Positions 36,477 through 54,173 of a stretch of DNA of 64,000 nucleotides are shown here, in pieces (position 1 is the stretch's first letter; the number at the start of each line of letters is the position of its first letter). Origin of the DNA: an archaeon (GTDB lineage Archaea; Nanobdellota; Nanobdellia; Pacearchaeales; GW2011-AR1). The stretch spans positions 52,555 through 116,554 of the forward strand of contig JBDRNU010000015.1 in the NCBI GenBank assembly GCA_043810775.1, in the 5' to 3' direction. The position numbers and the translations under genes were made by a program. The notes beneath the pieces are model-generated. The model was given only the letters and a program-made list of their open reading frames with translations, made no database searches and was not told the origin of the DNA.

Positions 36477-37172
36477 TTAAACTTCCAGCCCTTTTGAATG
36501 AGCTGCTGAAGCTATTATAAATCTTTCTATGATTTGAGTATTCTCACAATTAGATATACTTAGTTCATAGCAGTCTTCACTCACTCTCTTAATATTGCTG
36601 GTTTCTCCACTAGTTAAAATAATTACAGTGCTTCCTTTACTAAGCTTAACTCCTTTTTCATCAACTTCAAAAACCACACTTTTTCCCTCACAAGTAGCAT
36701 AATTTAATTCCTTTTCTTCTGCAAGAGTTTTATTAGTAACAGCAAACTCTGGCTCTATACCTGCTGCTCCTAAAAATTCAGAGAGCTGTGCAATTAATCT
36801 GAAGTTATCCCTGCACTCTTCAATACTTTGGTCAACTGAAATTAGGACAGTATGCTGGAATATTATTTCACCATCTACAGGTATATATTCTAAATCTCTT
36901 GGGTCATTTCTTAAATAAATATTATAATTAGCTATAACATTTCCAGTTAAATCTGACATTGGAGTTCTAGCGTGATAAAGTGGAAGATTATCAAACATTA
37001 TTTTTTCAAATTCCAAGCCTCCATAACTAAACTTTCTTGATTCTTTTACTATCAAAGCAGCCGAGAATATCCCTAAAATCATTACAGCCATGAAAATTCC
37101 TATAATTTTAATTTGCCTAGCTTGTTTTTCATTTGTTTTTTTATCAACTTTTGCTTCTTCTGTATTATTCAT
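36477..37172 (-). CDS. membrane-anchored extracytoplasmic protein
   Basis: 231 aa with a single N-terminal TM helix; lies in an operon downstream of the S-layer-like gene. Confidence 0.45.
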   Translation of the reverse strand: MNNTEEAKVDKKTNEKQARQIKIIGIFMAVMILGIFSAALIVKESRKFSYGGLEFEKIMFDNLPLYHARTPMSDLTGNVIANYNIYLRNDPRDLEYIPVDGEIIFQHTVLISVDQSIEECRDNFRLIAQLSEFLGAAGIEPEFAVTNKTLAEEKELNYATCEGKSVVFEVDEKGVKLSKGSTVIILTSGETSNIKRVSEDCYELSISNCENTQIIERFIIASAAHSKGLEV

Positions 37173-37173
37173 T

Positions 37174-37746
37174 TTAAACTCCTAAAACTTTGTAAATAAA
37201 TGCATCACTTGCTCTTAATATCTCTGAGCTCGGAGCATTTATAAGTATACAATTTTCTTCCTTGCTAATCTCAATATTTTCACTGTATTTAATAATTATT
37301 ATATTATCTGTACAGTTTTTATAAGGTAAATCCTCAGTGCAATTCTCAAAAAAGCAAACATCTTGTGTTTTATCTATAAAAAATTTCATATTCTGGTATA
37401 TTTCAGATTTGGCAAGGCTATTTTCTGATGCAAAATAAAGATTTTTTCCAGTGTAGCTTTCTAATCTTACTATAGGTATAGTAATATTTTCTGTTTCTTC
37501 AGGATTATATCTTGTATAAAATTCATTGTCATTTTTAGAAAAATACCAGTAGTTATTTTCTAACCTGAGGAACTCAACCCCATTTAAAGTCAGCTTATTA
37601 TCTGTATCCTCACTATCTTCTCCAGTATTATAAAAAGCATATCCTGCAGTGCTGATTATTAAGATAATAACCATAAAAATCCCCAAAGCTATTTTCTTTA
37701 TATTATCAGACTTTGCTTTTGAGTCCTTGGTCTCTATTTTTCTCAT
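37174..37746 (-). CDS. membrane-anchored extracytoplasmic protein
   Basis: 190 aa with a single N-terminal TM helix; 2-nt spacing to the next gene. Confidence 0.45.
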   Translation of the reverse strand: MRKIETKDSKAKSDNIKKIALGIFMVIILIISTAGYAFYNTGEDSEDTDNKLTLNGVEFLRLENNYWYFSKNDNEFYTRYNPEETENITIPIVRLESYTGKNLYFASENSLAKSEIYQNMKFFIDKTQDVCFFENCTEDLPYKNCTDNIIIIKYSENIEISKEENCILINAPSSEILRASDAFIYKVLGV

Positions 37747-40679: not shown

Positions 40680-41036
40680 ATGGCAAAGAAAAGAACACGC
40701 ACTGTAAATTTATATATAACTCCTACAACTTTCTCGTCGATATTTAAGCGCATTACTGGTGAAAAGCAAGAATTTGATTTTTCTGGTATAACTGAGCTTA
40801 GACAGTGTCTTTCTAATGAAAAGGCAAAGATCTTGCACGCAATTAAAGAAAAAGAACCTGATTCAATTTACCAGTTAGCTAAGCTTCTTAATCGTGATTT
40901 CAAGTCTGTTAATAATGATGTTAAGCTTCTTAAGAATTTTGGCTTTTTAGAGTTTAAATCTGAGTTTACTGGAAAGCGCAAAAAGCTTAAACCAGAAATA
41001 GCTATTGATTCTTTAAATGTGGTTATTAACTTTTAG
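40680..41036 (+). CDS. winged-helix (ArsR/MarR-like) transcriptional regulator
   Basis: 118 aa; AKILHAIKEKEPDSIYQLAKLLNRDFKSVNNDVKLLKNFGFLEF forms an HTH plus wing. The gene is divergent from the S-layer gene and convergent with the pilin-like cluster. Confidence 0.45.
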   Translation: MAKKRTRTVNLYITPTTFSSIFKRITGEKQEFDFSGITELRQCLSNEKAKILHAIKEKEPDSIYQLAKLLNRDFKSVNNDVKLLKNFGFLEFKSEFTGKRKKLKPEIAIDSLNVVINF

Positions 41037-41580
41037 TGCATACTTGCATATCAGTAATTATATCTCCAGGTGACTTATGGATAATTCCACTAGCTCCAAG
41101 AATATTACCACTGCAGTTTCCTTGTTCAATGCTGACTAGTGGATACTCGAACTGGTCTTCTCTATAATAAATATATACTTCATAGTATTTTGTAGGTACG
41201 TCTGGCCCTATAAGCCAGGTTTCTTCTAAAATACTAGAAAACTCCTCTTCAAGCACATCGCAAGAGTCTCTATCCCCTAAACACTCTTCACCATCATAGC
41301 ATTTTTTAATAAGTTTTTCTATACTAAGATACTGGGGCTCAAACCCAACTGCGCATGCAGTAGTATACATTAAAGCAGAATCTAAGAATTTATCAATTTT
41401 TTCAGATTCACTTATTTTTACATCTTTTCTAATACTCATTCCCAAGAAAATAAGGGCAACTATACTAACTATCACTATAATTAGCACAAATCCTATCATC
41501 TCTTCTTGCGAGCGCTTGCACGAGACTAATTTATTAGATGAATAACGAGCGCAGGCGCGAGTTGAGCATTTACTTTTCAT
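41026..41580 (-). CDS. type IV pilin-like protein (class III signal peptide)
   Basis: 184 aa; CKRS|QEEMIGFVLIIVIVSIVALIF is a basic patch followed by a hydrophobic helix. Confidence 0.45.
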   Translation of the reverse strand: MKSKCSTRACARYSSNKLVSCKRSQEEMIGFVLIIVIVSIVALIFLGMSIRKDVKISESEKIDKFLDSALMYTTACAVGFEPQYLSIEKLIKKCYDGEECLGDRDSCDVLEEEFSSILEETWLIGPDVPTKYYEVYIYYREDQFEYPLVSIEQGNCSGNILGASGIIHKSPGDIITDMQVCTKS

Positions 41581-42104
41581 TGTATTTCTACCTCATACCC
41601 TACTAATATCTTACCTATATCACATTTAGTGAAAATATAGCTTTCCTGGCTTTCTCTTCTGCATAAAGCTACAAAACTTTCTACTTTTCTCTCACTTTCA
41701 ACCCTCTTATCATAAATCTTAAATAAATTACAGTTTGGGTAAGTTCCCATATCACACTCTATCTCACTAGTCTCTTGAGGGTAAACTTTTCTTATTTCAA
41801 TGCTAGATATTGAACTAGGCCAAAAACCATTATAAATAGCCCTATCTTTAAGTAGAATCATTCTATCAAAATCCAAGCAATTCACCCCACAGCTAAATTC
41901 TGGAGAATTAGCAAGCATATTTACAAGCCTAATTGCCTCATTTTGATCTAATAAGCTTGCTTTTTTATATAAGCTTGAAGTAGAGATTGTTAGATAGAAT
42001 AATCCTGCAAGTATAAAAAATAACACAATAGCCATTAGCATGAAAGCCATTTGCTGTATTTTTAATTGCGAGCGTTTTTTTACACTAAATTCCATAATAA
42101 GCAC
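41577..42104 (-). CDS. type IV pilin-like protein (class III signal peptide)
   Basis: 175 aa; KKRS|QLKIQQMAFMLMAIVLFFILAGLF. Confidence 0.45.
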   Translation of the reverse strand: MLIMEFSVKKRSQLKIQQMAFMLMAIVLFFILAGLFYLTISTSSLYKKASLLDQNEAIRLVNMLANSPEFSCGVNCLDFDRMILLKDRAIYNGFWPSSISSIEIRKVYPQETSEIECDMGTYPNCNLFKIYDKRVESERKVESFVALCRRESQESYIFTKCDIGKILVGYEVEIQ

Positions 42105-43045
42105 TCTCCAAAACCAGCTTTTTCTTCAATTTCCAGTGATTTATCATATACTCCTTGAGTTTTTAGGTCTTCTGAACTTTCAACAAGCTGGGCTTTTTGA
42201 GCTAAGACTAAAAAATCACTATATAATCCAGTATGACAATCCCTACCTTCTAAAAAATTACTTTCTTCAGCATAAAGATAAGCTAATTGTTCTGCCCTTC
42301 CCATAAGTCTCTCTACATTACACTCATATATTTCTGGGCTAGAGAAAATAGCCGCATAAAGCAGGTTTTTGTAATAATATAACTGCTCCCTATCTTTAGT
42401 TACATAACCCTCATCATAACTATCTCCTATTTTTTCTACATTAATATCACAATCTCTGCTCCTCATTCCATTCCCAAAACAAATCTTTTTACTGTCTTCT
42501 TGGCAGGTTGCATTAATCTCTACATTTCCTAGTATAATCAGATTATCCTCAATTTCATTAGAGGGATTTTTAAAGCAGTATTTATCAGAATACATCATTG
42601 TCAGTGAAGCTACTTTATATCCTGTTTCAAAAGGCATTGAAAACATATAGACTTTCTTTCCCTGAACTTCATCAGAGAAAATATATTTATTTCTTAATCT
42701 TATTTCTCCCCCAGGTTCTTGCCATTCATCTCCAACTCCGCTTTTAGTTGAGAGTGAAAATTCCTGCCAGCCAAAAGTGCCTGTTTTTTCACACTCATTA
42801 AATATTTTAGTTTCAGAATTAAAACTAATATAAGCCGTCTTTTCAGCCTCAATACTTGTTTCAAGTGGAGAGAAAATTATGCTTAGTTTTTTTGCTGTTT
42901 CTGTGTCTATTTTATACTTACTAACATGAATAAATTGAGTAGTTGTATAAATTGCAATTGCAATTATGAAAATTCCTGCCAAAATTGCAAATATAATTGA
43001 AAAACTAAATTCAAAACCTCTTTTATTAATCATTTTAAATCTCAT
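42080..43045 (-). CDS. type IV pilin-like protein (class III signal peptide)
   Basis: 321 aa; NKRG|FEFSFSIIFAILAGIFIIAIAI, a classic prepilin-like N-terminus. Confidence 0.55.
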   Translation of the reverse strand: MRFKMINKRGFEFSFSIIFAILAGIFIIAIAIYTTTQFIHVSKYKIDTETAKKLSIIFSPLETSIEAEKTAYISFNSETKIFNECEKTGTFGWQEFSLSTKSGVGDEWQEPGGEIRLRNKYIFSDEVQGKKVYMFSMPFETGYKVASLTMMYSDKYCFKNPSNEIEDNLIILGNVEINATCQEDSKKICFGNGMRSRDCDINVEKIGDSYDEGYVTKDREQLYYYKNLLYAAIFSSPEIYECNVERLMGRAEQLAYLYAEESNFLEGRDCHTGLYSDFLVLAQKAQLVESSEDLKTQGVYDKSLEIEEKAGFGECLLWNLV

Positions 43046-43137: not shown

Positions 43138-43641
43138 TTAACAATCACTGCCTATGCAAACTAATCTTTCATAATATCCTTTTTCAATTCTAAAACTAAT
43201 TTTCGAATCAATATTTTCTATACAATATGGATTAAGCCTATTTGTAATCTTGCTTATATTTATATCAGGAATATAATAATAAGGTAAGTTGCAAGCTTGT
43301 TCAGGAGGGTATAAGTAAACACTAGCTTCATAAATATCATATCTTTTCAATTCATCAAATATATCTTTTTTATTTGTAGAGGCTTTGCTAAAATCTACAA
43401 AGCATAAATAATCTATATCTTTTGGCATATATCCTGAGAATTCCTGGCTTGAAGAAGGAGACTTCCATACAATATCTACACTATCTTTTAAGTCACCCAT
43501 ATATGAGGCAATTTGAGTGCATTTCCTTAATTCAAGAAAATGATTAATTGCAATAAATGCAATTATTACAAATAATACAATTAAGAATATGGAAAATATC
43601 ATTCCAAATGGCAGTTGCATGTCGCCTCTTTTTCCTCTCAT
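43138..43641 (-). CDS. type IV pilin-like protein (class III signal peptide)
   Basis: 167 aa; GKRG|DMQLPFGMIFSIFLIVLFVIIAFIAI. Confidence 0.45.
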   Translation of the reverse strand: MRGKRGDMQLPFGMIFSIFLIVLFVIIAFIAINHFLELRKCTQIASYMGDLKDSVDIVWKSPSSSQEFSGYMPKDIDYLCFVDFSKASTNKKDIFDELKRYDIYEASVYLYPPEQACNLPYYYIPDINISKITNRLNPYCIENIDSKISFRIEKGYYERLVCIGSDC

Positions 43642-43672: not shown

Positions 43673-46600
43673 CTACTCATTATATCCTCGGGCTATGATG
43701 CTGCATTCAGAAGGATTAGGCTGTTTTCCTGAAGTATCTCTACACTTTATATAATATGAGAAATCAGTATTCCACTCTGCATAGTGTTCAGTAGTATTTG
43801 AATAAGGCATTTGTATTCCTTCATTAAAATTAAAATTACAAGTACTAGTAGAGTATGAACAATCAGAATCTTCATCAGTAATAATCTTCAAGCAGCCAGC
43901 ATTTCCGCATATTTTGCTAGGTCCTGTATCTTGGTAAACTCTGACTACTGTAGGTGCTTCTCTGTCAACCTTAACTGTAAATTCAGTATCTGCAAAATCA
44001 GTATTTCCACCTAAATCAGTGCATTTAAAATAATAATGATAGTCTCCTTCCGGCAGGTCTTGTCTCTGTTGATGAGTATAATCCCTAGTATCAAAAAACA
44101 TTATCCAGTCTTTTTCTTGTCCAGTTGTGCTATAAAAGCAAAATGCATCTCCATCACAACAGCCATTGTCAGTTACAATTTCAAGATATACAGGGAAAAT
44201 ATCAGTTCCGCCTGAAATTGTTTCATTTGGCCCGTAGCTGAGTATATCTAGTGGTTGTGTTCCTAGCAAGGTAAATTCAAAGCTTTGCCTGTTTTCATTT
44301 CTGTCACCTTCAGGCTTTCCAGGCTGGTCTTTGCATCTAAAGTAAAATTTATTTTCAACCCTGTCTTGTATTCCAGTCAGAGTAGAAGAGCACTTATACA
44401 ATAAATTAGCACCCATTTCCCAGACTCTAGTTGAGCATGCAAAGGAATTTTCCATAACATCATAATCTTTGTTTTCTCTTGACCATTTGCATTCAGATGG
44501 TTCATTTACATAAAGTTCAAAATAAACCTGGCTAGTGTTGTAAGCAACTGGCATTCCGCTAATTATGCTTGTATTATAAATTACTGGAGGAGTTAAATCT
44601 GGTCCAGCTTCTACACAGAATCTTATTGCAAATTCATCATCATTTACATTTCCATTAGCGTCTTGGCATCTTGTATATAGTGTATAAGTTCCGTCTGGTT
44701 GTATAAGTGGATTTTCAGCTCCTTCCAATACACTTGCCCCCGGCAAGCTTAATCTTTGAGTATGATTATACAAGTATAAATTAGTTTCTCCAAAATAATA
44801 AGACATACTTTCAATATCTTTAGTGTGATTATAGTCAATCTTGCACTGAGCAGGTTCATTTGTCATTAATCCAAATGTTATTGGTGTAAATGCCTTTATA
44901 CAGCCGTCTCTAGTTTCTTGGCTTGTTATTTGCATTCCAATTGAAGGTGGTCTTGTATCTACATTAGTATAGCTATGGTCTAAGCTTAGTGCATCTTCCC
45001 ATGGAGTTATTGTTGGGCTATTTACATCATGAGGATTTATCCAGACACAGGACTCATTTCCAATGCTTCCTGCATTTAACAGTTCGCAAGCCTGCCCTAA
45101 TGACTTGCATCTATATTCTGAGCAAGGTCTAAATGGGTCGCCATTGCATTCCTCGCAATTATGCCCTCCTACTGGGGCTTCCCATGTCTCGCATGTAAAT
45201 ATTACCTTCTTTTGAGTTACCTCTTCATATAAAATTATAAAGACTATTATTCCTATTGCTATTCCTGCTATTGCTCCTCCTGCGCTTAACTGCCCTATTC
45301 CTAATCCTCCTTGTGACCACCCCCCACTACCAGCTAAAGGACTTGATAAAAGCCTCGCACTAAACCCGGCTGCAAATCCAGCTGCTCCTAATGCCTTGCT
45401 CATCTCTTCACTTGCCCCCATCATACTTGCCCCCATATAAAGCAGTCCTCCAACAAACATCCCCCATCCCAATGATGCTACAAGAACTCCTCCAGCGGTC
45501 CCTGGTTGTACTAAATTACCTAGTCCTCCACCTGTATTTGCTGGTGATGTTTGAGATGCAGGACCTGGTGTTGTTGAAGGTGCTGTAGTTACACTTCCTT
45601 CTGCGATAATTTTATTTTCCCCAAATGTCACTTTATCAGCAGTAATAGCTACTCCACCCCCATCAGCCCCTTTCACACCCCCTACCCCAAACACCAACCC
45701 AACCAATCCTCCCACCCCACCGCTCAACAACCTGACAGCAGGCAGGATAAAATCAGTCTTTATCTTTGAAATTTTCAAATCATAACCCTCATCATAGCCA
45801 TCCTCTCCCAAATAATTAACCTTGCCATCGCAGTCTCCCATGCTTGCACATAATTCCTTCATCTGATTCTGCCAGCTCTCATCAAGGCACTCACAATTTT
45901 TAGTGCAGTCTTCATCACTATAAATTTTCTTTTCAAATTCAACAACACAAACAGCACTAGCTTGCGAGCAAACTCCCTGAGCATCTCCTTTAGTGCTGTA
46001 AAAATCCAATCCAGGCGAATAACTTGGAACACAGCTCATATTTTTTCCTGCAATGCTTCCTATCCACTCGCAATCTCTTTTATCAGTATTTTCACAATCA
46101 TCTTGCTCACCCTGAAATATACAATCCTGCCACCTATTAGCAACACACCCAGCTTGTGAGAACAACCCATGGTCAGTTTCAATTCCGCCCTGCCAGCAAA
46201 CTTCTTGTCTAAAATCAGCGCACGGCTCTACAATCTCTTCATTAGAAATACAAATATGTCTCCACTCTCTAGCTCCAACAGCATTAGCATCTTCATCACC
46301 TACACTAGTCGCTGTACCATCATACATGCACCATGACTCTCCGTGATTAAAATCCTGCCCATTATAAGTTTTCTCGCAATCTAAATCTCTGCAAATGCTC
46401 TCTCCATAGCTAGGTCTAGTGCTATCTTGGCTTCTGTCATAAGCTCTGCAAATACTTCCATAAAAATAATCACAATTTCCGCATCCAGCAGAATTAGCAT
46501 TCGCACTTCCAGCTCCACAGCTCTCATCCTTGCTGTAAACTTTTTTCCAGTATAAGTCATCATTTATTTTGCTAGCATCATAAATATTAGCAGGATTTCC

Positions 46601-47323
46601 GCAAGTATCAATAAAATAAACCTCATCTAATCCAGAAACACAAATAGTCTCACTTGATTTCCCGCAATTAGTAGCAAGCTCTTCAGCTGAGCAAAGCCAG
46701 TCTTTATGAAAAGTAATATTTCCAGTAACAGTTCCTTCATCAGAACCAACTAAACCTTCATCACACTGCTGTCTAGTAACAAATTTGCAGCTCCGGATAT
46801 AATCTGTTTCATATACGCAAGCTCCCTTATCCTGGCTGTGAGCCATTTCAATACAAGCATCTTCATCCTGAACATTAGTTCTAAAATTAGTATTTAATCC
46901 ATAAAATGCGCTTATTCTTTTGCATCTAGTTAAAGTTACTAAAGCCGCCTCATTAGCAAGAATACAACAACCTAATTCACACTGTGCAATATTACAATCT
47001 TTTCCTTCAGACCAGGTGCCATTTTTTTCAATGCAAACTCTTTCAGGAGTATTTTCCATGCATAGTCCTTCCTTGCCATCATAACAGCATCCCTCTCTGC
47101 AAAAAGAAGTAGCATCACAGCTTGTAGGGCTACTCCTATAATTAGAATTGCAGCTTGCACTTTCAGAATTCTGGCACCAAGCTCCATAGCTTGTTTTTTC
47201 ACAGCATACACTAGTTTCTTGAGCGCTTACAACTGCAAAACCAGAACTTAATATATAAGCAATTGCAAAAATACTAATTACTAGTAAGCAAATTTCACTA
47301 ATTGAATAAAATTTCTTCATCAT
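43673..47323 (-). CDS. giant cysteine-rich membrane-spanning surface protein (paralog A)
   Basis: 1216 aa. Layout: signal peptide, Cys-rich N-domain with CC dyads, Gly-rich multi-TM core (GGVGGLVGLVFGVGG..., AGGAIAGIAIGIIVFIIL), conserved CETWEAPVGGHNCEECNGDPFRPCSEYRCKSLGQAC module, then a beta-rich C-terminal domain. Confidence 0.7.
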   Translation of the reverse strand: MMKKFYSISEICLLVISIFAIAYILSSGFAVVSAQETSVCCEKTSYGAWCQNSESASCNSNYRSSPTSCDATSFCREGCCYDGKEGLCMENTPERVCIEKNGTWSEGKDCNIAQCELGCCILANEAALVTLTRCKRISAFYGLNTNFRTNVQDEDACIEMAHSQDKGACVYETDYIRSCKFVTRQQCDEGLVGSDEGTVTGNITFHKDWLCSAEELATNCGKSSETICVSGLDEVYFIDTCGNPANIYDASKINDDLYWKKVYSKDESCGAGSANANSAGCGNCDYFYGSICRAYDRSQDSTRPSYGESICRDLDCEKTYNGQDFNHGESWCMYDGTATSVGDEDANAVGAREWRHICISNEEIVEPCADFRQEVCWQGGIETDHGLFSQAGCVANRWQDCIFQGEQDDCENTDKRDCEWIGSIAGKNMSCVPSYSPGLDFYSTKGDAQGVCSQASAVCVVEFEKKIYSDEDCTKNCECLDESWQNQMKELCASMGDCDGKVNYLGEDGYDEGYDLKISKIKTDFILPAVRLLSGGVGGLVGLVFGVGGVKGADGGGVAITADKVTFGENKIIAEGSVTTAPSTTPGPASQTSPANTGGGLGNLVQPGTAGGVLVASLGWGMFVGGLLYMGASMMGASEEMSKALGAAGFAAGFSARLLSSPLAGSGGWSQGGLGIGQLSAGGAIAGIAIGIIVFIILYEEVTQKKVIFTCETWEAPVGGHNCEECNGDPFRPCSEYRCKSLGQACELLNAGSIGNESCVWINPHDVNSPTITPWEDALSLDHSYTNVDTRPPSIGMQITSQETRDGCIKAFTPITFGLMTNEPAQCKIDYNHTKDIESMSYYFGETNLYLYNHTQRLSLPGASVLEGAENPLIQPDGTYTLYTRCQDANGNVNDDEFAIRFCVEAGPDLTPPVIYNTSIISGMPVAYNTSQVYFELYVNEPSECKWSRENKDYDVMENSFACSTRVWEMGANLLYKCSSTLTGIQDRVENKFYFRCKDQPGKPEGDRNENRQSFEFTLLGTQPLDILSYGPNETISGGTDIFPVYLEIVTDNGCCDGDAFCFYSTTGQEKDWIMFFDTRDYTHQQRQDLPEGDYHYYFKCTDLGGNTDFADTEFTVKVDREAPTVVRVYQDTGPSKICGNAGCLKIITDEDSDCSYSTSTCNFNFNEGIQMPYSNTTEHYAEWNTDFSYYIKCRDTSGKQPNPSECSIIARGYNE

Positions 47324-47324
47324 C

Positions 47325-48101
47325 TTATTTTATTGTACCAGTGCTATATCCTGGAGGCCAGCTCAAGCTTCTAGTGGCAAATATAAATTTTTCTTCTGTA
47401 ATTCTGTCAGTTAAAACATAAATCTTGCTTCCATCAGACTGCTTGTATTTTTCAACTTTCAAGTCAGGATAATATAACATATAAGTAAGAGGGTCAGAAT
47501 CTCCTAATCTAGCTTCATAGTTTAGTATTGATGTAGAAATCATAACTAAATCATATAATCCAGAGTCTAATGAAAATTTAATAGTTTCATAAGTATCACT
47601 TACACCCTCTCTTTTGTTTAGCACCATATTCATGTTAATATCAAATATAATCCTATCAGGAATAAATTCAACATTTAATTCATTATTTCCTAAAGCAACA
47701 ATATACCCCTGCTTCTCCATTTGCTTTTTCAAGCTTAAAGCACACTCTCTAGTTACTTGCTGAAGTTCAGCTTCCAGCTCCTCTTCAATATGCTGTTTAA
47801 GAAGTGGTTGCTGCATTGTGCAAGTATCATAATACTCATTAGTATAGCATAAATAATCAACATCATAACCCTCATACCAGATGCTATTTTCCGGAGAAAA
47901 ACTCCCACCTTTTTTAGTTAAAATATCTAGTTTATCTTCGGCAATATCTTCTACACAACCCTTCATATAAGCATTAGGTTCAGTTGGCCCAAATACTACT
48001 GATTCAATCCTAGGCCAGAATAAAACTATTAATACAGAAACTATAAGTATAGCTATAATTACAAATATGGTAATTTGCGCCCTCTTTTTTAAACTATGCA
48101 T
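47325..48101 (-). CDS. type IV pilin-like protein (class III signal peptide), partner of giant A
   Basis: 258 aa; MHSLKKRA|QITIFVIIAILIVSVLIVLF. Its stop lies 1 nt from the start of giant A. Paralog of 52524..53294. Confidence 0.55.
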   Translation of the reverse strand: MHSLKKRAQITIFVIIAILIVSVLIVLFWPRIESVVFGPTEPNAYMKGCVEDIAEDKLDILTKKGGSFSPENSIWYEGYDVDYLCYTNEYYDTCTMQQPLLKQHIEEELEAELQQVTRECALSLKKQMEKQGYIVALGNNELNVEFIPDRIIFDINMNMVLNKREGVSDTYETIKFSLDSGLYDLVMISTSILNYEARLGDSDPLTYMLYYPDLKVEKYKQSDGSKIYVLTDRITEEKFIFATRSLSWPPGYSTGTIK

Positions 48102-48190
48102 GTTTTTTCAACGCGAGCTATATTTATAAAGTTTATTAAAGCAAATAACTCAAGAATAAATTTAAATACTTCAGTTCAAAGTTCCTATTA

Positions 48191-48769
48191 ATGGATCAAT
48201 CAACAGAAACTGAAGTCAGAAATTTTGAACTATATAGTGCTCTTCAGGCAAGTCCTCACTCTAATCAAGGTCAGATTGATAGGGCATATAAAAGGCAAAT
48301 TGAATTTCTTCAAGCTAAGCTGGAAAATTATGAAATAACAAAGGTTAATTTAATTGCAAGAGCTGATAAAAGAGACCCAATTGACAGAGTTGAATTAATA
48401 GCTGAACTTGCACAAGCTCGTCTTGAAATTCAAAATTTTCATACAGCAGTTGAACAGGCTAATCATACTTTATCTAATCCTGTAAGGCGTGCAATATATG
48501 ATTGTACTGGAGAATATGATAAAATTTTTCCACATGAATGCAAACATAGAATATTTCAACCCCAAGAACAGCATGATATCCCTAACTTAAGAGAAATTCA
48601 GGAGCAAATTATGGCAGGAAAAATTAGACATGTTTTTTATTCAGGTCCAGAAGGAACTAGCATGGGTTTTGAAAGTTTTTTGAGTCAATCTCCTTTTTTA
48701 GATTTATCTTTTATGGAAAAAATATTATCTGAAAGAATGAAAAGAGGATTTAAAGATTTTTTTAATTAA
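48191..48769 (+). CDS. J-domain-like protein lacking HPD
   Basis: 192 aa; QIDRAYKRQIEFLQAKL and ANHTLSNPVRRAIYD resemble J-domain helices II and IV. No His-Pro-Asp motif is present. Confidence 0.35.
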   Translation: MDQSTETEVRNFELYSALQASPHSNQGQIDRAYKRQIEFLQAKLENYEITKVNLIARADKRDPIDRVELIAELAQARLEIQNFHTAVEQANHTLSNPVRRAIYDCTGEYDKIFPHECKHRIFQPQEQHDIPNLREIQEQIMAGKIRHVFYSGPEGTSMGFESFLSQSPFLDLSFMEKILSERMKRGFKDFFN

Positions 48770-51700
48770 TATCAACTGCCCTTGTTTTAATGCTGCATCC
48801 CCCAGGCTCATTATTGAAAATATCTCTGCACTTAATGTGGTAAGTATAATCTATCTGCCATCCAGTAGTATGGAACCTGTCACTTCCACTCATCCTCTCA
48901 CCTTCATTAAAATCAAAATAGCAAGTATCAGTTGAATAAGCACAAGTAGATGGCTCTTCAGTTTCTACTACTAAACTTCCACCATCATGATAAACTCTGG
49001 TAATTACAGGATATCTGTTATCTACACTAATCTTAAAATCAGTTGAATAATTTGCTTCATTTTCAGCTACATCCTTGCAATTTATTTTGTAATTATAACT
49101 TCCTGCATACATTGTAGTCAGCGTTGAGCTATGATAATTGTCAAAAGTTTCCCTAAACCTGTCATTCCATCCATATGGTCCAAGTTTCCATCTGCATTCA
49201 GATTTTCCATCTTCAGCTCCTCCACTAGTATAAGTTTCTAGCTTAATGCTAACTGGTTCAAATCCAAAAATAGCCTCTCCACTTGGATAAGCTCCTTCTA
49301 CTTTTAATGGAGATAAGCTTGGATACAGCGAATAAGGATAAGCTTGGGTGTTTGCGTTTCTTTTGCTTTCATTTTCTCCAGCATACCAAGGCTGGTCTTT
49401 GCATTTGAAATAAAATTCATTTTCTTCAAGAGTAGTATTCAGCTTTAAAGCAGTGTCGCAATTAAATCCCCATACAGTTGGTGTTTCAAATACATCAGCT
49501 GAAGGGCAAGTAAATTCTCCTTCCATTAGCTCATAATCTATGAATTCTTTAGTGCTCCATCTGCAAGTCACTGGCTCATTTACATAAATTGTAATATTTT
49601 TTTCACTGGAATTATATTTAGTGTAGGCATAATCTTCTGGAATTGTTTTTTGAATTCTGGGAGCAGTTAAATCAGGCCCTGGCTTTACACAGAAATTAAT
49701 AACATAGTCAGCTGGAGTCCAGGCTCCCCAGTCATCCTGACATTTTACATAGAGGTTATAGTCTGCAACTCTGTTAGGGTCAAATCCATGAGCTCCTAAT
49801 GCATCAGGGCTTGGCAGATTAATGCTCGTTGAGTGATTTCTCAAGTATAAATTTCTATTGTTGAAAAATTGAGGCATATTTTCATAAGGCATTATTCCTG
49901 GTTCTAGTGAATACTTGCACTGTCCTAGCTCATCTAATGAAATTCCAAATTGCACATTAGTCCATGCTTGTATGCATCTTCCGTCTTGTTGCCTTACTTT
50001 ATAGCCATTGTTGGAAACTTCTGTATAAGTATAATTTTCAGTTACAATATTATACCAGGGTGAAATTTGTGGAGGAATTGCATCTTGCTTGCTTGCCTCA
50101 CATATTTCAGCTTCACTTCCCTCATTAAAAAAGTGGCAGGCAGCTCCCAAGCTTGAGCATCTGTATTTTGAGCATGGATGCATAGGATTATCGTCGCAAT
50201 TTCCGCAATCAGAGCCGCCAACAGGCGGCTGCCATGGCATGCAGTTAAATGATACTGTATGCTCTTTTGTATCTCCTATTCCGAGAAGTTTTGTAACTAT
50301 TGCTACTATAATTATAAATAATATTGCTAATGGGCAAAGAATACCAGTAGAGCACAATGTCATAATTCCTACTTGCATATATGCAGCAACAGCTCCAACC
50401 ACTAATCCTGCAACAGCTCCTGCAATAGTGACAATTAATAATCCCTCTCCCTCCAATCCAAACATTTTTCCAATCATCATTCCTATCATTGCACCAACTG
50501 CAACTCCTATAGCTATATTTGCAAATCCTGCAAAAAACCCAAATGATTGCGAACCTGATATAACTCCTGACGCCGTTTCAGTAATTACTATTCCTTTAGT
50601 AAGTGAATATGAAACCACTAAACCATCAGTAAGCGCTGCTGTTGTTATCATTCCAACAGCCCCCACACCATAAGCCCCTGTTGTTCCCAGCATAAATTTA
50701 TACATTGCATCAGAATAATCAGCTTCTTCATATTCATCTAACTCCCCAATTCCCAAGAAACCATAAAAACTGCTGATATCTCTTGCATCAGCAAACTGCC
50801 CTTCAATTGGTTCAGCATATTTCTCAAATTTTTCCAAATCAGATTTTTCTAATCTAGGAGCTCCAGTTACAGAATATCCTCCATCTGTAACTTCTCCCTC
50901 AATATTAACATAAGCTCCGCAATCTCCAAGCGAAACACAATAATTATTCATTTTTTCTGCAAATTCCTTGCTTTGGCAATCACAATTAAACTCGCACTCC
51001 CATCCATCAACATGCTTTACCTCAACCCAAGTGCAATCAAGGCTTGCTCTTCCACATATAGTTGAAGCAACATCATATCCTTTTTCACTCTGAAAATCAA
51101 AACCAGGAGAATACTTTGGAACACATAAATCAAAGCTATAATCAGAGTCAATGTCAATTTTCTGCACTCTGCACACAAAATTCTTTTCGCACTTGTCAGT
51201 TTCAACTTCCTTATTATAACTTAGGCATTCTTGCCATGGATTTATCATGCAAGAAGCTGTAGAAAATTTTTCTCCACTAGAGTCATCAACTATAATATCA
51301 CTCTGAACACATATTTCAGTTCTATAATCCCCGCAAGGGTCAATCTTAACCTCCCCATTCTGGCAATAGTGCTTCCAGTGTCTCGAGCCTACTACATCAG
51401 TTGAAAATAAATTATCCTCTCCATCTATTATTTGAACAGCAGCTACATTAGGAATATCTTCTGATTTTGATTCACTTTCTCCAATACTTCCATCATACAC
51501 ACACCACGACTCTCCATTTCTTCTTGCATTTCCTTTTTCATCAATACAATCCATATCTCTACAAATATACTCTCCTTCTGCAGGTGTAACTCCAGAACCC
51601 TCAGCCCCCCCACATATACTTCCTAACATATAAAAACAGTTTCCACAGCTAAGTGAATTCGCATTGCCATTAGCATTAGTAGGATTACAACTTTCATTTT

Positions 51701-52520
51701 TTTCTAACACCCACCCATTATTCCAGCTTGCATCTCTATCAGAATCATAAATATTTTCCATATTTCCACAAGAATCAAACCAATAAACCTCATTATACTT
51801 ATTTTTATTATCAGCACATCCAGTGCTTGCCTGTCTTGTGCAGTTTGTTTCTAATTCAGAATTTGAACATAATACATCTTCATGAAACTCTCCACCACTA
51901 CTCTGGCACTCTTGCTGAGAAATAAATTCGCAATTATTTTCATCTTCACCATAATAAACACAAGCTCCAGTTGAAGTAGTTGAAGCAAGAGCAATACACT
52001 CTATCTCATAAATAACATCTGGTCTGAAGTCAAAATCAAAACCATAATAATCAGCAAGATAATTACATCTATCTCTAGTAACAAACTGAGTCTCATCTCC
52101 TAAAACACAGCAAGCCTTCTGGCATTCTGCAATATTGCAAGCAGGTTCATCAAACCATTGTCCTCCATCTTGTTCGCATTTAGCTTTTGGCGAGTTGCTT
52201 GCACAAGTTCCTTGATAGCTATCAAAGCAGCATCCATAATCACAGTTAGTAGTATCTTCACAAAATCCAGGGAAACACCCACTAAATCCTCCCTGGCACT
52301 GCCCTCCACACTGCTCCCAGACCATTTCCTGGCATATGCTATTATTATTAGTAACTTCACAGCATTGTGGAGTTAATGGTTGTGCTTCAACCACTTTAAT
52401 TTCATCTGTGATAATTCCAACTAAATAGCAAAATGCAAAAATAGCAATTACTAAGTTTAGTATCTGAAAATAGCTAATTCTAGCTTTTCTGCCCAAAACC
52501 TCTTTTTTATTTATTTTCAT
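48762..52520 (-). CDS. giant cysteine-rich membrane-spanning surface protein (paralog B)
   Basis: 1252 aa; same architecture as paralog A. The conserved module is CMPWQPPVGGSDCGNCDDNPMHPCSKYRCSSLGAAC, with a Gly-rich TM core and a conserved C-terminal domain. Confidence 0.7.
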   Translation of the reverse strand: MKINKKEVLGRKARISYFQILNLVIAIFAFCYLVGIITDEIKVVEAQPLTPQCCEVTNNNSICQEMVWEQCGGQCQGGFSGCFPGFCEDTTNCDYGCCFDSYQGTCASNSPKAKCEQDGGQWFDEPACNIAECQKACCVLGDETQFVTRDRCNYLADYYGFDFDFRPDVIYEIECIALASTTSTGACVYYGEDENNCEFISQQECQSSGGEFHEDVLCSNSELETNCTRQASTGCADNKNKYNEVYWFDSCGNMENIYDSDRDASWNNGWVLEKNESCNPTNANGNANSLSCGNCFYMLGSICGGAEGSGVTPAEGEYICRDMDCIDEKGNARRNGESWCVYDGSIGESESKSEDIPNVAAVQIIDGEDNLFSTDVVGSRHWKHYCQNGEVKIDPCGDYRTEICVQSDIIVDDSSGEKFSTASCMINPWQECLSYNKEVETDKCEKNFVCRVQKIDIDSDYSFDLCVPKYSPGFDFQSEKGYDVASTICGRASLDCTWVEVKHVDGWECEFNCDCQSKEFAEKMNNYCVSLGDCGAYVNIEGEVTDGGYSVTGAPRLEKSDLEKFEKYAEPIEGQFADARDISSFYGFLGIGELDEYEEADYSDAMYKFMLGTTGAYGVGAVGMITTAALTDGLVVSYSLTKGIVITETASGVISGSQSFGFFAGFANIAIGVAVGAMIGMMIGKMFGLEGEGLLIVTIAGAVAGLVVGAVAAYMQVGIMTLCSTGILCPLAILFIIIVAIVTKLLGIGDTKEHTVSFNCMPWQPPVGGSDCGNCDDNPMHPCSKYRCSSLGAACHFFNEGSEAEICEASKQDAIPPQISPWYNIVTENYTYTEVSNNGYKVRQQDGRCIQAWTNVQFGISLDELGQCKYSLEPGIMPYENMPQFFNNRNLYLRNHSTSINLPSPDALGAHGFDPNRVADYNLYVKCQDDWGAWTPADYVINFCVKPGPDLTAPRIQKTIPEDYAYTKYNSSEKNITIYVNEPVTCRWSTKEFIDYELMEGEFTCPSADVFETPTVWGFNCDTALKLNTTLEENEFYFKCKDQPWYAGENESKRNANTQAYPYSLYPSLSPLKVEGAYPSGEAIFGFEPVSIKLETYTSGGAEDGKSECRWKLGPYGWNDRFRETFDNYHSSTLTTMYAGSYNYKINCKDVAENEANYSTDFKISVDNRYPVITRVYHDGGSLVVETEEPSTCAYSTDTCYFDFNEGERMSGSDRFHTTGWQIDYTYHIKCRDIFNNEPGGCSIKTRAVDIN

Positions 52521-52523
52521 TGT

Positions 52524-53294
52524 TTAAAATCCTGCTGGAATTATGCATCCTCTTACAGCAAATTTCAGTCTATCTTTAGTATATTTATCTTCAACTACAT
52601 AAATTTTTGCAGCATTTTCATTTCCACCATGAGTATATCTTTCAACATAAACTTCAGGATATAGCAAGCTGTATCCAATATACTCAAAATGGCAGTACTT
52701 CGCTTCCTGGTCAACAATTTCTACAGCTATACTAGCCAAATCATAAAGCGGAGTAGCTATTACTAGCTTAAATTCATCATATTTTTTTTCTTCACCCTTT
52801 CCAGAAATTTCAATAGTTCTGTCAATATCAACTTCTAATTTCCTTGAAGACAGTTCACAATTTACTTGCATAGCACCCCTGTCTTCTAGCACAATATCAA
52901 AACCCTTTTTTTCATACTCTTCTTTAAAAGCTTCAAAACAAGAATTAATTTTATCTTCTGAATTATCAGTAATTTCATTTTCAAGATGCTTGAAATACAT
53001 TGGCTCCTGGTTTACACAAGGATAATAATAATTCATATTATAGCACAAATAAGCAATTTTATTTCCTTCAAATAGCTTATAATTTTCAGGCTCTAAATAT
53101 CCTCCTTGAGCAAGCATCTTTTGAATTACACTTTCTTCAAAACACTCAGTCAAATAAGCTTGAGGCTCAGGAAGCTTAGCTGGTCTAAAATTAATAATAG
53201 TATCTCCTCTTAAAATCATATAAAAAACAATTGAAACTAGTATAATAATTCCTATAATTACAAATATAGTGATTTGCGCCCTCTTTTTTAACAT
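52524..53294 (-). CDS. type IV pilin-like protein (class III signal peptide), partner of giant B
   Basis: 256 aa; MLKKRA|QITIFVIIGIIILVSIVFYMIL. Lies 3 nt upstream of giant B. Confidence 0.55.
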   Translation of the reverse strand: MLKKRAQITIFVIIGIIILVSIVFYMILRGDTIINFRPAKLPEPQAYLTECFEESVIQKMLAQGGYLEPENYKLFEGNKIAYLCYNMNYYYPCVNQEPMYFKHLENEITDNSEDKINSCFEAFKEEYEKKGFDIVLEDRGAMQVNCELSSRKLEVDIDRTIEISGKGEEKKYDEFKLVIATPLYDLASIAVEIVDQEAKYCHFEYIGYSLLYPEVYVERYTHGGNENAAKIYVVEDKYTKDRLKFAVRGCIIPAGF

Positions 53295-54063: not shown

Positions 54064-54173
54064 AATCCTTAAATATCCTAAAAGATTTTTAAGCTTTTAT
54101 ATACTGGTATATATACTCTTTATTAAAGAGGCTAAGGGCAAACATTTTCATAAAACAGTTAATTTGAGTTAAA

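What the first reader, a model, noticed from the sequence alone, without database searches (positions are those of the whole stretch)
43673..52520. Two paralogous giant proteins with an unusual architecture: Cys-rich ectodomain, glycine-zipper multi-TM core, conserved C-x-W-x-x-PVGG-x-x-C-x-x-C-(D/N)-P-x-x-PCS-x-YRC-x-SLG-x-AC module
Both giants share the same domain order.

- **N-terminal region:** a signal or signal-anchor, then a cysteine-dense domain of about 500 aa with recurring CC dyads (GCCILANE / ACCVLGDE; GCCYDGKEG / GCCFDSYQG).
- **Central region:** an internal stretch of roughly 200 aa made of Gly/Ala-rich hydrophobic helices with GxxxG-type spacing (GGVGGLVGLVFGVGG; GVAVGAMIGMMIGKMFG), predicted to cross the membrane several times.
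- **Post-TM module:** a strictly conserved Cys-rich module immediately after the last TM helix (TCETWEAPVGGHNCEECNGDPFRPCSEYRCKSLGQAC versus NCMPWQPPVGGSDCGNCDDNPMHPCSKYRCSSLGAAC).
- **C-terminal region:** a conserved beta-rich domain (…RVYQD/RVYHD … IKCRD…).

A membrane core in the middle of a protein of about 1200 aa, flanked on both sides by large Cys-rich domains, is atypical for adhesins. It suggests a transmembrane conduit or anchor rather than a simple surface fibre.
Basis: seen in the sequence. Interest (0 to 1): 0.7.

Follow-up and report, generated by a model that had tools for sequence, protein, structure and literature searches.

The report
Giant membrane-anchored surface proteins of DPANN archaea
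Two ancient paralogous, cysteine-rich giant surface proteins sit in a conserved gene cluster with six pilin-like proteins next to the S-layer gene in tiny, probably symbiotic (DPANN) archaea. They form an undescribed family and are a plausible cell-surface or host-contact apparatus rather than a membrane channel.

Summary
Giants A (43673-47323, minus strand) and B (48762-52520, minus strand) are full-length paralogs (33% identity, E=0) with the described domain order.

They belong to a large, unnamed family restricted to Pacearchaeota/Woesearchaeota-type DPANN archaea:
- At least 570 genomic hits in GTDB species representatives.
- 1497 N-domain representatives among 1.84 billion proteins.

No Pfam, NCBIfam or PDB sequence match covers the Cys-rich N-domain, the hydrophobic core or the post-TM module. 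The C-terminal "beta-rich domain" is four homologous Ig-like domains.

- Each giant is translationally coupled to a ~257-aa protein with a type-IV-prepilin signal and a pilin-like fold.
- Four more prepilin-like proteins, an HTH regulator and the S-layer gene follow in conserved order.
- Most giants carry a conserved pilin-like N-terminal helix.
- Natural variants exist without any hydrophobic core (Sec signal, N-domain, short polar linker, module, Ig domains). Others have the N-domain as a separate secreted protein.

Both large domains are therefore extracellular, and the glycine-zipper core is an optional loop-in membrane anchor, not a conduit.

Best reading: subunits of a pilin-related (pseudopilus-like) envelope or adhesion complex. 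The function is inferred, not shown.

The parts
43673..47323 (-). Giant A, 1216 aa (whole gene, stop codon included)
   Evidence: ORF. It is 100% identical to NCBI 'hypothetical protein ABIH72_03650 [archaeon]'. The AF2 model of residues 35-1216 has pLDDT 81.
47222..47323 (-). A residues 1-34: N-terminal hydrophobic helix (KKFYSISEICLLVISIFAIAYIL) followed by VSA|Q
   Evidence: The family consensus is (I/V)A(S/G)(F/L)(E/Q)I..LI.S.FAF. A strict prepilin-like motif is present in 49/121 homologs. A itself is a near-miss, with no G/A/S at -1 in register.
45764..47221 (-). A residues 35-520: Cys-rich N-ectodomain ('head'), 45 Cys
45224..45763 (-). A residues 521-700: central region. It holds the Gly-zipper segment 525-551, a disordered linker 552-609, helices 610-634 and 639-660 (a hairpin), and the strong TM helix 681-698.
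   Evidence: Hydropathy. AF2 gives pLDDT ~30 for mature 490-575 and predicts helices at mature 576-600, 605-626 and 647-664. The helix columns are charge-free across 121 homologs. There are no Cys.
44948..45223 (-). A residues 701-792: juxtamembrane Cys module (C-x-W-x2-PVGG-x2-C-x2-C...PCS-x-YRC-x-SLG-x-AC...C)
   Evidence: Seven conserved Cys and invariant Y737/L742/G743. It is unrelated to the Ig domains by hhalign. No family hit.
43676..44947 (-). A residues 793-1216: four tandem Ig-like domains (793-910, 911-1024, 1025-1122, 1123-1216)
47325..48101 (-). A', 258 aa: prepilin-like partner of A (KKRA|QITIFVII). Its stop codon lies 1 nt before the start codon of A.
48762..52520 (-). Giant B, 1252 aa. 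Parts: N-helix 1-46 (52383-52520); N-domain 47-545 (50886-52382); central region 546-752 (50265-50885), with hydrophobic segments 615-636, 662-688, 694-720 and 727-747; module plus four Ig-like domains 753-1252 (48765-50264).
   Evidence: It is listed as NCBI ABIH72_03665.
52524..53294 (-). B', 256 aa: prepilin-like partner of B. Its stop codon lies 3 nt before the start codon of B.
   Evidence: 32% identical to A', E 4e-36. The class-III N-terminus is conserved in orthologs.
43138..43641 (-). p167: small Cys-containing protein with a class-III-type N-terminus (KRG|DMQLPFGMIFSI)
   Evidence: Ortholog N-termini are conserved. Conserved position after A.
42080..43045 (-). p321: class-III-type N-terminus (NKRG|FEFSFSIIFAIL)
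41577..42104 (-). p175: class-III-type N-terminus (KKRS|QLKIQQMAFML)
41026..41580 (-). p184: class-III-type N-terminus (KRS|QEEMIGFVLIIV)
40680..41036 (+). HVO_A0114-family HTH regulator, conserved between the pilin-like genes and the S-layer gene
   Evidence: Pfam PF25212, E 2.9e-18. Synteny.
37841..40291 (-). S-layer-like protein, 816 aa, with a Sec signal
   Evidence: Pfam S_layer_C at 25.3 bits, above the 23.9-bit cut-off. Conserved downstream neighbour.
36477..37746 (-). x190 and x231: two small N-terminally anchored proteins that follow the S-layer gene in many genomes

Best explanation
A and B are the two giant subunits of a conserved cell-surface assembly specific to Pacearchaeota/Woesearchaeota-type DPANN archaea.

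Each giant is essentially extracellular and very probably disulfide-stabilised. It has:
- a Cys-rich ~480-aa 'head';
- a flexible tether of variable length;
- a small Cys module that sits directly on the membrane;
- a stalk of four Ig-like domains.

The protein is held in the cell's own membrane by two elements that occur together: a conserved type-IV-pilin-like N-terminal helix and an internal Gly/Ala-rich (glycine-zipper) helical hairpin or bundle. The chain dips into the membrane and comes back out (a loop-in anchor), so both large domains face outward.

Each giant is made together with its own small pilin-like partner (A' or B'). With four further pilin-like proteins it probably assembles, through the bundled hydrophobic N-terminal helices, into a short pseudopilus-like or tip-complex-like structure that stays membrane-attached at or through the S-layer. 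That structure would serve attachment or contact (host cell or substrate) and/or envelope architecture.

Shown here: paralogy, domain anatomy, family distribution, synteny, the pilin-like signals and fold of the partners, and the same-side location of the two big domains.

Inferred: disulfides, the number of membrane passes, physical association with the pilin-like proteins, and the adhesion function.
For: Anatomy:
- A and B are 33% identical end to end.
- The AF2 model has pLDDT 81. The head and the C-region are confident, the linker is disordered and three central helices are predicted.
- The C-region is four homologous Ig-like domains.

Extracellular location of both big domains:
- Five of 86 intact B-type relatives lack any hydrophobic central segment. 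They run Sec signal, N-domain, 80-135 aa polar linker, module, Ig domains.
- About 24 representatives are Sec signal plus N-domain only.
- In L081 the A-type gene is split. One gene encodes a secreted N-domain. A second encodes pilin-like helix, H2-H4, module and Ig domains.
- Conserved Cys counts are even in each Ig domain (4/4/2/4), in positions that I judged, from sequence alone, to resemble B- and F-strand positions. Cys density is ~5%, against ~1% in cytoplasmic proteins of the window.
- The sequon NHT at A853 is conserved in 93% of members.

Anchor rather than pore:
- The core is the least conserved region, and the central region ranges from 149 to 504 aa.
- Its helices have no conserved polar positions.
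- The conserved E/Q N-helix co-occurs with the core: 126 of 175 members with a core have it, against 5 of 34 without. Fisher p = 4e-10.

Pilin connection:
- The six small proteins have conserved class-III N-termini. They account for 6 of the 9 loose-motif hits among 71 window ORFs.
- A strict [KR]x0-2[GAS]x4[E/Q] motif is present in 49/121 giants.
- Gene starts and stops are 1-3 nt apart within each pair.

Conserved cluster:
- The order PCNA, B', B, A', A, p167, p321, p175, p184, HTH, S-layer recurs across dozens of species.

Precedent:
- Archaeal type IV pilus loci with two large adhesin-like proteins, several minor pilins and S-layer-like proteins are described in PMC4858521.
Against: - No assembly ATPase, platform protein or prepilin peptidase lies in the window or in the flanks examined.
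- A and B of this window are near-misses for the prepilin cleavage motif. The -1 residue varies across the family (G, A or S in only about 40%), so processing is doubtful.
- The number of membrane passes could not be fixed. Charge bias is uninformative, and simple counts give 3-4 internal segments, which together with a retained N-helix makes parity ambiguous.
- No coordinates were available, so Cys pairing and head-stalk contacts were not checked.
- High sequence conservation (40-50% across orders) is unusual for host-specific adhesins.
- TM-less variants are rare (5 of 86, and 1 of 62 in the fetched loci).
- No expression or localisation data exist.
Confidence: 0.5

Rival explanations
1. True pilus-tip adhesins. 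The cluster encodes the priming or tip complex of a genuine type IV pilus: four minor pilins, two further pilin-like adaptors and two giant adhesins. The giants are extracted from the membrane and displayed at the tip of an extended filament built by an ATPase and platform encoded elsewhere. This would parallel FimU-PilVWX-PilY1 in bacteria.
For: - There are six class-III-signal proteins, and four of them form a fixed quartet after the giants.
- The giants have a pilin-like N-helix with E/Q at +5.
- A' has a pilin-like fold.
- There is precedent for two large adhesin-like proteins in archaeal type IV pilus loci.
- TM-less secreted giants would be compatible with tip display.
Against: - Most giants (58 of 62 in the loci) carry at least one strongly hydrophobic internal helix, which would oppose extraction into a filament.
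- No candidate major pilin, ATPase, platform or peptidase was found in the cluster or its flanks.
- There is no DUF2341 or PilY1 domain.
Confidence: 0.15
2. Envelope scaffold. The giants and the small proteins are structural membrane-to-S-layer connectors (stalks or anchors, functionally like SlaB). They organise the S-layer encoded next door and have no role in adhesion or host contact.
For: - The S-layer-like gene is a conserved neighbour, together with two further anchored proteins.
- Strong sequence conservation across orders fits a housekeeping structural role.
- An Ig-like stalk with a membrane-proximal module fits a spacer function.
Against: - An S-layer homolog was detected in only 19 of 45 loci with enough flank. 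This is a lower bound from tblastn.
- A scaffold role does not explain the prepilin-type signals on six partners.
- It does not explain a large Cys-rich distal head on a flexible tether, which can also be released as a separate secreted protein.
Confidence: 0.15
3. Transmembrane conduit. Glycine-zipper helices of several A and B copies oligomerise into a pore. The two Cys-rich domains form vestibules, giving a channel for exchange with a host.
For: - GxxxG-type small-residue periodicity is present in helices H2-H4.
- B has a sub-threshold YMGG Gly-zipper hit (E 0.081).
- A and B form a conserved paralog pair that suggests hetero-oligomers.
- From general knowledge, glycine zippers do line some channels.
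Against: - The core is dispensable in at least 5 intact relatives.
- The core sits in the most variable region, and that region contains a disordered linker.
- There are no conserved polar or charged pore-lining positions.
- Both big domains lie on the same side, so the protein does not bridge two compartments.
Confidence: 0.07
4. Receptor with a cytoplasmic C-half. The N-domain is outside, an odd number of internal passes follows, and the module plus Ig-like domains lie in the cytoplasm. The conserved Cys would bind metal, for signalling or scaffolding.
For: - Residues after the last helix are often YKK(T)K.
- Simple counts often give three internal helices.
- The module contains one CxxC.
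Against: - TM-less variants secrete the module and Ig domains together with the N-domain behind a single Sec signal.
- Net charge after the last helix is about zero.
- Conserved Cys counts are even in each Ig domain.
- A sequon is conserved in the C-region.
Confidence: 0.03

Closest known systems
Archaeal type IV pilus (TFF) loci with two large PilY-like/DUF2341 proteins, five or more minor pilins and S-layer-like proteins (Methanococcales-type 'system 1'; Makarova et al. 2016, PMC4858521; bioRxiv 10.64898/2026.04.22.720090)
   Same: A cluster of several class-III-signal proteins plus two large secreted proteins and an S-layer-like protein. System 1 is reported in some DPANN.
   Different: No DUF2341 or PilY domain was found. 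The cluster has no ATPase, platform or peptidase. Here the giants carry an internal hydrophobic core, a pilin-like N-helix and novel Cys-rich domains. Homology to those large proteins was not tested, because no sequences were at hand.
Bacterial minor-pilin tip complexes with a large non-pilin adhesin (FimU-PilVWX-PilY1 of type IVa pili; GspH-I-J-K of type II secretion)
   Same: A quartet of small pilin-like proteins is encoded with a ~1100-1200-aa adhesin-like protein. A' gives its best, though weak, fold matches to minor pilins and pseudopilins such as GspI/XcpV, PilX, PilE, PilV and GspK.
   Different: The similarity is by analogy only, with no sequence relationship. PilY1 has a vWA domain and a beta-propeller and no TM segments. 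Here there are two giants, each with its own dedicated partner.
Modular type IV pilins (for example Streptococcus sanguinis PilB and PilC; PMC8179133, PMC9934059)
   Same: A pilin-type N-terminal helix is fused to bulky functional modules.
   Different: The modules here are about 10 times larger and are followed by extra membrane helices. The canonical pilin globular domain after the helix is not evident. The cleavage motif is imperfect in A and B of this window.
Tandem Ig-like repeat adhesins (Big_13-type domains; GhpA 'grappling hook'; cadherin/IgCAM ectodomains)
   Same: The C-terminal four domains are Ig-like by fold and near threshold for Big_13.
   Different: Only about one third of the protein is covered. 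The head, the module and the membrane core have no counterpart.
Glycine-zipper membrane proteins (Pfam Gly-zipper_YMGG; glycine-zipper channel formers)
   Same: Small-residue periodicity in the hydrophobic helices.
   Different: The Pfam hit is far below threshold: 13 bits against a 28.9-bit cut-off, and in B only. The helices are dispensable in some relatives.
Pacearchaeota/Woesearchaeota-specific protein-family module ('Module 98', 51 families mostly of unknown function, many membrane-bound or extracellular; Castelle et al. 2021, PMC8204110)
   Same: The same taxonomic restriction and the same predicted localisation.
   Different: That study lists families statistically. I could not confirm that these families are among them, because Supplementary Table 3 is not held. 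No architecture or cluster description is given there.

Membership tests
Type IV pilin-like (class III signal) proteins: giants A and B | Short basic leader ending in G/A/S at -1, then a ~20-aa hydrophobic helix, often with E at +5 | tested here: inconclusive
   The strict motif is present in 49/121 family members (E 34, Q 15; -1 residue G 26, A 19, S 4). A (KKFYSISEI) and B (GRKARISYFQI) of this window are near-misses. Some members have plain Sec signals.
Type IV pilin-like (class III signal) proteins: giants A and B | Cleavage by a prepilin peptidase (PibD/FlaK/EppA class) | not testable with these tools
   This needs N-terminal proteomics or an in vitro cleavage assay. No peptidase A24 gene lies in the window.
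Type IV pilin-like (class III signal) proteins: A', B', p167, p321, p175, p184 | Class III signal motif conserved across orthologs | tested here: met
   Conserved K[KR][GAS]|Q(V/I)T(I/L)F, KKG|FEFSFAW, K[AG]|QLKIQQMAF and KKG|QEEIVGF across 23-61 orthologs each. These proteins give 6 of the 9 loose-motif hits among the 71 window ORFs.
Type IV pilin-like (class III signal) proteins: A' | Pilin fold (a long N-terminal helix packed on an antiparallel sheet) | tested here: inconclusive
PilY1 / DUF2341 pilus-associated adhesins | DUF2341 domain, or PilY1 beta-propeller / vWA domain | tested here: not met
Complete type IV filament system | Assembly ATPase, TadC/ArlJ-like platform and prepilin peptidase in the locus | tested here: not met
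   None were found among the window ORFs scanned with Pfam or in the precomputed Pfam annotation of the L001, L002 and L081 flanks. The rest of the genome was not available.
Bacterial Ig-like domain (Big_13 and related) | Ig-like beta-sandwich, with a Pfam score above the gathering threshold | tested here: inconclusive
   A scores 26.5 bits against a 27-bit cut-off. 24 of 39 members hit at E <= 0.01. The Ig-like fold is clear for all four domains.
Glycine-zipper (YMGG-like) membrane proteins / channel formers | Pfam Gly-zipper_YMGG match; helices conserved and indispensable | tested here: not met
   13.1 bits against a 28.9-bit cut-off, in B only. The core is absent in at least 5 relatives.
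   By Kyte-Doolittle and biological-scale scans, A has 1 strong and 2-3 marginal segments, and B has 3 strong and 1 marginal. Three helix blocks are charge-free across the family. No dedicated topology predictor was available.
S-layer proteins | S-layer domain families | tested here: not met
   There are no S-layer Pfam hits in A or B. The neighbouring 816-aa protein has one.

The most novel reading that the evidence does not exclude
The conserved eight-gene set is two giants, their two pilin-like partners and four more pilin-like proteins, encoded beside the S-layer gene. It may build a previously unseen, membrane-tethered pseudopilus-like machine that is the host-contact apparatus of Pacearchaeota and Woesearchaeota.

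In this reading the Cys-rich heads, on variable-length tethers, reach through the S-layer to bind the partner cell. The Gly-zipper segment next to the head may even insert into the partner's membrane. The pilin-like helix and the internal hairpin hold the complex in the symbiont's own membrane. This would be a new class of intercellular tether derived from type IV filament parts.
Probability: 0.2. Interest if true: 0.85.

Novelty: new variant of a known kind. Interest (0 to 1): 0.6.

Why it matters
Pacearchaeota and Woesearchaeota are among the most abundant uncultured archaea in groundwater and sediments. How they attach to and exchange with hosts is unknown. Published work notes only that they share a block of lineage-specific, mostly extracellular families of unknown function (PMC8204110).

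This analysis picks out one conserved, syntenic cluster and gives it an anatomy:
- two ancient giant paralogs with two new Cys-rich domains;
- an optional loop-in membrane anchor;
- eight proteins with prepilin-type N-termini.

The result is a concrete set of candidate genes for the envelope or host-contact machinery. It can be tested by metaproteomics, cryo-ET with subtomogram averaging, and heterologous expression. It also defines at least two new domain families, the N-terminal head and the juxtamembrane Cys module.

Tried and rejected
- Positive-inside analysis of the loops across 121 homologs showed no usable charge bias. Residues after the last helix are net neutral.
- N-glycosylation sequon statistics are suggestive but not decisive. 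The N-domain ratio is 0.45, the central region 0.18 and the C-region 1.05 relative to shuffles. The shuffle control may overestimate expectation in low-complexity linkers.
- Cys parity for the whole N-domain and for the module depends on the threshold (43 or 44; 7). Only the Ig-domain counts were used.
- Internal repeats in the N-domain are weak: hhalign probabilities of 59-63% for two adjacent hairpin segments. They are not claimed.
- The six small proteins are not detectably similar to each other beyond their N-termini, apart from A' with B'.
- The afdb50 fold library was unavailable. The N-domain could therefore be compared only with PDB, and only as part of the full model. Ig arrays dominate the lists shown, so 'novel fold' is not established.
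- The PDB profile search found nothing better than E 0.68. NCBIfam found nothing.
- IMG/VR viral contigs hold no relatives, so a viral origin is rejected.
- Six literature searches and five papers gave no description of this family or cluster. Supplementary Table 3 of PMC8204110, which would give TMHMM counts per family, is not held.
- A fusexin/HAP2-like fusogen was considered because of the Cys-rich ectodomain with TM segments. No class II fusion fold appeared among the top hits, and the domain order differs. It was not pursued.

Full report
**1. What is there**

The window is a low-GC (~31%) archaeal segment. It carries a ribosomal-protein/SecY block, FtsZ, PCNA, primase PriS and a Cas4-like nuclease.

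Giant A (43673-47323, minus strand, 1216 aa) is identical to NCBI 'MAG: hypothetical protein ABIH72_03650 [archaeon]' on a 160,888-bp contig. Giant B (48762-52520, minus strand, 1252 aa) is ABIH72_03665. They align end to end: 425/1298 identities, 33%, E=0.0.

Each giant has 71 Cys. In A the split is 45 in residues 35-520, none in 520-705 and 25 after 705.

**2. The family**

- A word-indexed search found 304 relatives (E <= 1e-3) of 915-1517 aa. All are unnamed or 'hypothetical', and all named sources are Pacearchaeota, Woesearchaeota, Nanoarchaeota or 'archaeon'.
- A scan of GTDB species representatives found at least 570 encoding stretches. All 80 loci shown come from the same groups.
- An exhaustive HMMER search with a profile of the two N-domains found 1497 cluster representatives (823 at E <= 1e-30) among 1.84 billion.
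- No relatives occur in IMG/VR viral contigs.
- Pfam on A, B and 39 members hits only Ig-type families (Big_13, DUF4625, Y_Y_Y), and only on the third C-terminal domain, near threshold. NCBIfam and a profile search of all PDB sequences find nothing.

**3. Anatomy**

Sources are a 121-sequence alignment and an AF2 model of mature A with pLDDT 81 and pTM 0.54.

(a) N-terminal helix.
- Its sequence is unusually conserved for a signal peptide: (I/V)A(S/G)(F/L)(E/Q)I..LI.S.FAF(S/A)(Y/F)L.
- A basic stretch precedes it, ending in G/A/S exactly four residues before the E/Q in 49 of 121 members. An example is KKAG|ISYLEI. This is the classic type IV prepilin arrangement.
- A and B of this window are near-misses, and a minority of members have ordinary Sec signals.

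(b) Cys-rich head of ~480 aa.
- It has 43 conserved Cys columns and is modelled confidently as mostly short beta-hairpins.

(c) Central region.
- The region as a whole is 149-504 aa long in the family.
- It contains an amphipathic stretch plus a Gly-zipper segment, and a disordered linker (pLDDT ~30).
- It then has three helices that contain no charged residue in any homolog. Their consensus runs: L..GL.WAA.AY.AG..IG.L.GL, a short charged loop, ALS.A.AAG, a loop, then GIGVG..VF...YKK.

(d) Cys module.
- It begins two residues after the last helix.
- It has 7 conserved Cys and invariant Y737, L742 and G743.
- It is unrelated to the Ig domains.

(e) Four Ig-like domains.
- The four are homologous to one another, with hhalign probabilities of 94-98%.
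- Conserved Cys counts are 4/4/2/4.

**4.

Each giant is preceded by a ~257-aa protein. The partner's stop codon lies 1-3 nt from the giant's start codon. A' and B' are themselves paralogs (32% identity, E 4e-36). The duplicated unit is therefore a two-gene cassette.

Four further small Cys-containing proteins lie downstream of A: p167, p321, p175 and p184. All have class-III-type N-termini that are conserved across orthologs. In the whole window a loose class-III pattern hits 9 of 71 ORFs, and six of these are the cluster proteins.

The gene order is PCNA, B', B, A', A, p167, p321, p175, p184, HTH (opposite strand), S-layer-like protein, x190, x231. It recurs across dozens of species-level genomes. 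The counts below are lower bounds from tblastn:

| Feature | Loci |
|---|---|
| Small-plus-giant pair present | 68 of 80 |
| Two tandem pairs present | 39 of 80 |
| Small-protein quartet in order (enough flank) | 28 of 61 |
| S-layer homolog detected (enough flank) | 19 of 45 |

No filament ATPase, platform protein or prepilin peptidase lies in the window or in the flanks inspected.

**5. Natural variants that settle sidedness**

The N-domain profile search returned an excess of 490-660-aa proteins. These consist of a plain Sec signal, the N-domain and a short polar tail.

One of them (P0305) sits in the usual locus on a 120-kb contig (L081). There the A-type gene is split:
- A 547-aa secreted head.
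- An inserted 154-aa gene.
- A 734-aa protein that starts with the pilin-like helix (RKKSG|MALSQIIILIV...) and continues with the linker, helices H2-H4, the module and four Ig domains.

In the same locus the B-type giant is 989 aa. It has a plain Sec signal (…LVSA|VCCQKT), the N-domain, an 85-aa polar linker with no hydrophobic segment, then the module and the Ig domains.

A search seeded with that protein gave 86 relatives that carry both landmark motifs. Five of them have no hydrophobic central segment (maximum 19-residue hydropathy below 1.0) and two are borderline. All have plain Sec signals.

In these proteins the head and the module/Ig stalk are exported behind a single signal, so both are extracellular. 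The conserved E/Q N-helix co-varies with the internal core:
- Core present: 126 of 175 have the E/Q helix.
- Core absent, or head-only: 5 of 34 have it.
- Fisher p = 4e-10.

Several of the 'plain' cases with a core carry another conserved Q-containing helix that my pattern missed.

I infer that the N-helix and the internal helices form one membrane unit. The unit is an anchor that can be lost. A pore that is dispensable, poorly conserved and without polar lining is unlikely.

**6. What remains open**

The number of passes could not be fixed. A has one strong and two or three marginal hydrophobic segments. B has three strong and one marginal. Charge bias is uninformative.

Same-side ectodomains require an even number of passes between head and module. 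This could be H2 plus H4 with an interfacial H3, or all four segments.

Disulfide bonding is inferred from three observations, because model coordinates could not be inspected:
- Cys density of ~5%, against ~1% in cytoplasmic proteins of the window.
- Even conserved Cys counts in each Ig domain.
- Motif positions (C.WS ... Y.RC.D) that I judged, from sequence only, to resemble the canonical Ig B-F pair.

The sequon NHT at A853 is conserved in 93% of members.

**7. Mechanism proposed**

Shown: two giant, mostly extracellular paralogs; their anchor elements; dedicated pilin-like partners; and a conserved cluster next to the S-layer gene.

Inferred (confidence about 0.5): the eight proteins with prepilin-type N-termini assemble through their hydrophobic helices into a short structure that stays membrane-attached. 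It would resemble a pseudopilus or a pilus tip complex. The Ig stalks and tethered Cys-rich heads project at or through the S-layer, for attachment or contact and/or envelope organisation.

Rivals:
- A genuine extended pilus with the giants at its tip (0.15). The internal TM helices and the absence of machinery and of a major pilin in the locus argue against it.
- A purely structural S-layer connector (0.15).
- A receptor with a cytoplasmic C-half (0.03). The TM-less variants contradict it.

**8. Relation to known systems**

The closest described plan is the archaeal type IV pilus locus with two large PilY-like/DUF2341 proteins, several minor pilins and S-layer-like proteins (PMC4858521). By analogy it also resembles bacterial minor-pilin/PilY1 tip complexes and modular pilins.

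Membership in those families is not established:
- DUF2341/PilY domains are absent.
- The machinery genes are absent from the locus.
- The prepilin motif is imperfect in this window's giants.

Castelle et al. 2021 (PMC8204110) report a module of 51 Pacearchaeota/Woesearchaeota-specific families, mostly of unknown function and mostly membrane-bound or extracellular. These genes probably belong to it, but no description of the cluster or architecture was found in six literature searches.

I rate the finding a new variant of a known kind (pilin-associated surface adhesin/scaffold systems) that contains at least two undescribed domain families.

**9. Verdict**

The finding is genuine, non-artefactual and more interesting in its context than as first described. 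The 'conduit' idea should be dropped in favour of an optional loop-in anchor. Interest 0.6.

Noticed in passing
window 48191-48769 (+), between B and A': A 192-aa ORF on the opposite strand overlaps the 3' end of B by 8 nt and fills a ~660-bp spacer. It has only a partial, sub-threshold DnaJ hit (E 5e-4). The B-to-A' spacer is 35-46 bp in L001, L002 and L081, and no homolog of this ORF was found in any of the 80 loci. It may be a lineage-specific insertion or a spurious ORF.
   Followed up: partly
window 50089-50673 (+): A 194-aa antisense ORF lies inside the Gly/Ala-rich central region of B. It is almost certainly a by-product of the biased codons on the coding strand.
   Followed up: no
L081 8001-12269: An A-type giant is naturally split into a secreted head (547 aa) and a 734-aa membrane and stalk part. 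A 154-aa gene lies between them, and its product carries a lipobox-like 'VGSGC' sequence. Two extra small genes (98 and 73 aa) precede the head.
   Followed up: partly
representative proteins P0248, P0305, P0306, P0294, P0346, P0363 and about 20 others: A sizeable class of stand-alone secreted proteins consists of a Sec signal plus only the Cys-rich N-domain (490-660 aa). The head therefore works as an autonomous module.
   Followed up: partly
family alignment, A residues 40-705 versus 712-1214: N-x-S/T sequons are strongly depleted in the N-domain (0.45 of shuffle expectation) and in the central region (0.18), but not in the C-region (1.05). The C-region has four conserved sequon positions, including NHT at A853 in 93% of members. 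The cause of the depletion is unexplained.
   Followed up: partly
B-type relatives such as P0103, P0107, P0116, P0337, P0356: A subfamily has a different conserved N-terminal helix ('VVQIFLLIN..ANSY'). A long polar spacer follows, then a second conserved motif 'IKQIG(V/I)VSA' before the first CC.
   Followed up: no
window 35456-36025 (+): A 189-aa membrane protein has a weak exosortase/archaeosortase-type hit (Exosortase_EpsH, E 2.4e-4, below the cut-off) close to the S-layer cluster. By eye (no hydropathy check was run), the S-layer-like protein shows no C-terminal TM or PGF-type tail.
   Followed up: no
window 33769-35397 (+), 16373-19141 (+), 56254-58092 (+), 58167-59450 (+): The window holds further large proteins of unknown role. 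One is a 542-aa protein with CARDB and Ig-like hits. Three others, of 922, 612 and 427 aa, have no Pfam match.
   Followed up: no
window 53341-56197 and loci L001, L002, L081: PCNA, primase PriS and a Cas4-like nuclease are conserved immediate upstream neighbours of the surface-protein cluster across many genomes. PCNA was detected in 42 of 80 loci. No functional link is apparent.
   Followed up: no
conserved Cys columns, A numbering: The juxtamembrane module has an odd number (7) of conserved Cys, whereas each Ig domain has an even number. One module Cys may be free, may bind a partner, or may link to the head. The count depends on the threshold, and no coordinates were available to check.
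   Followed up: no
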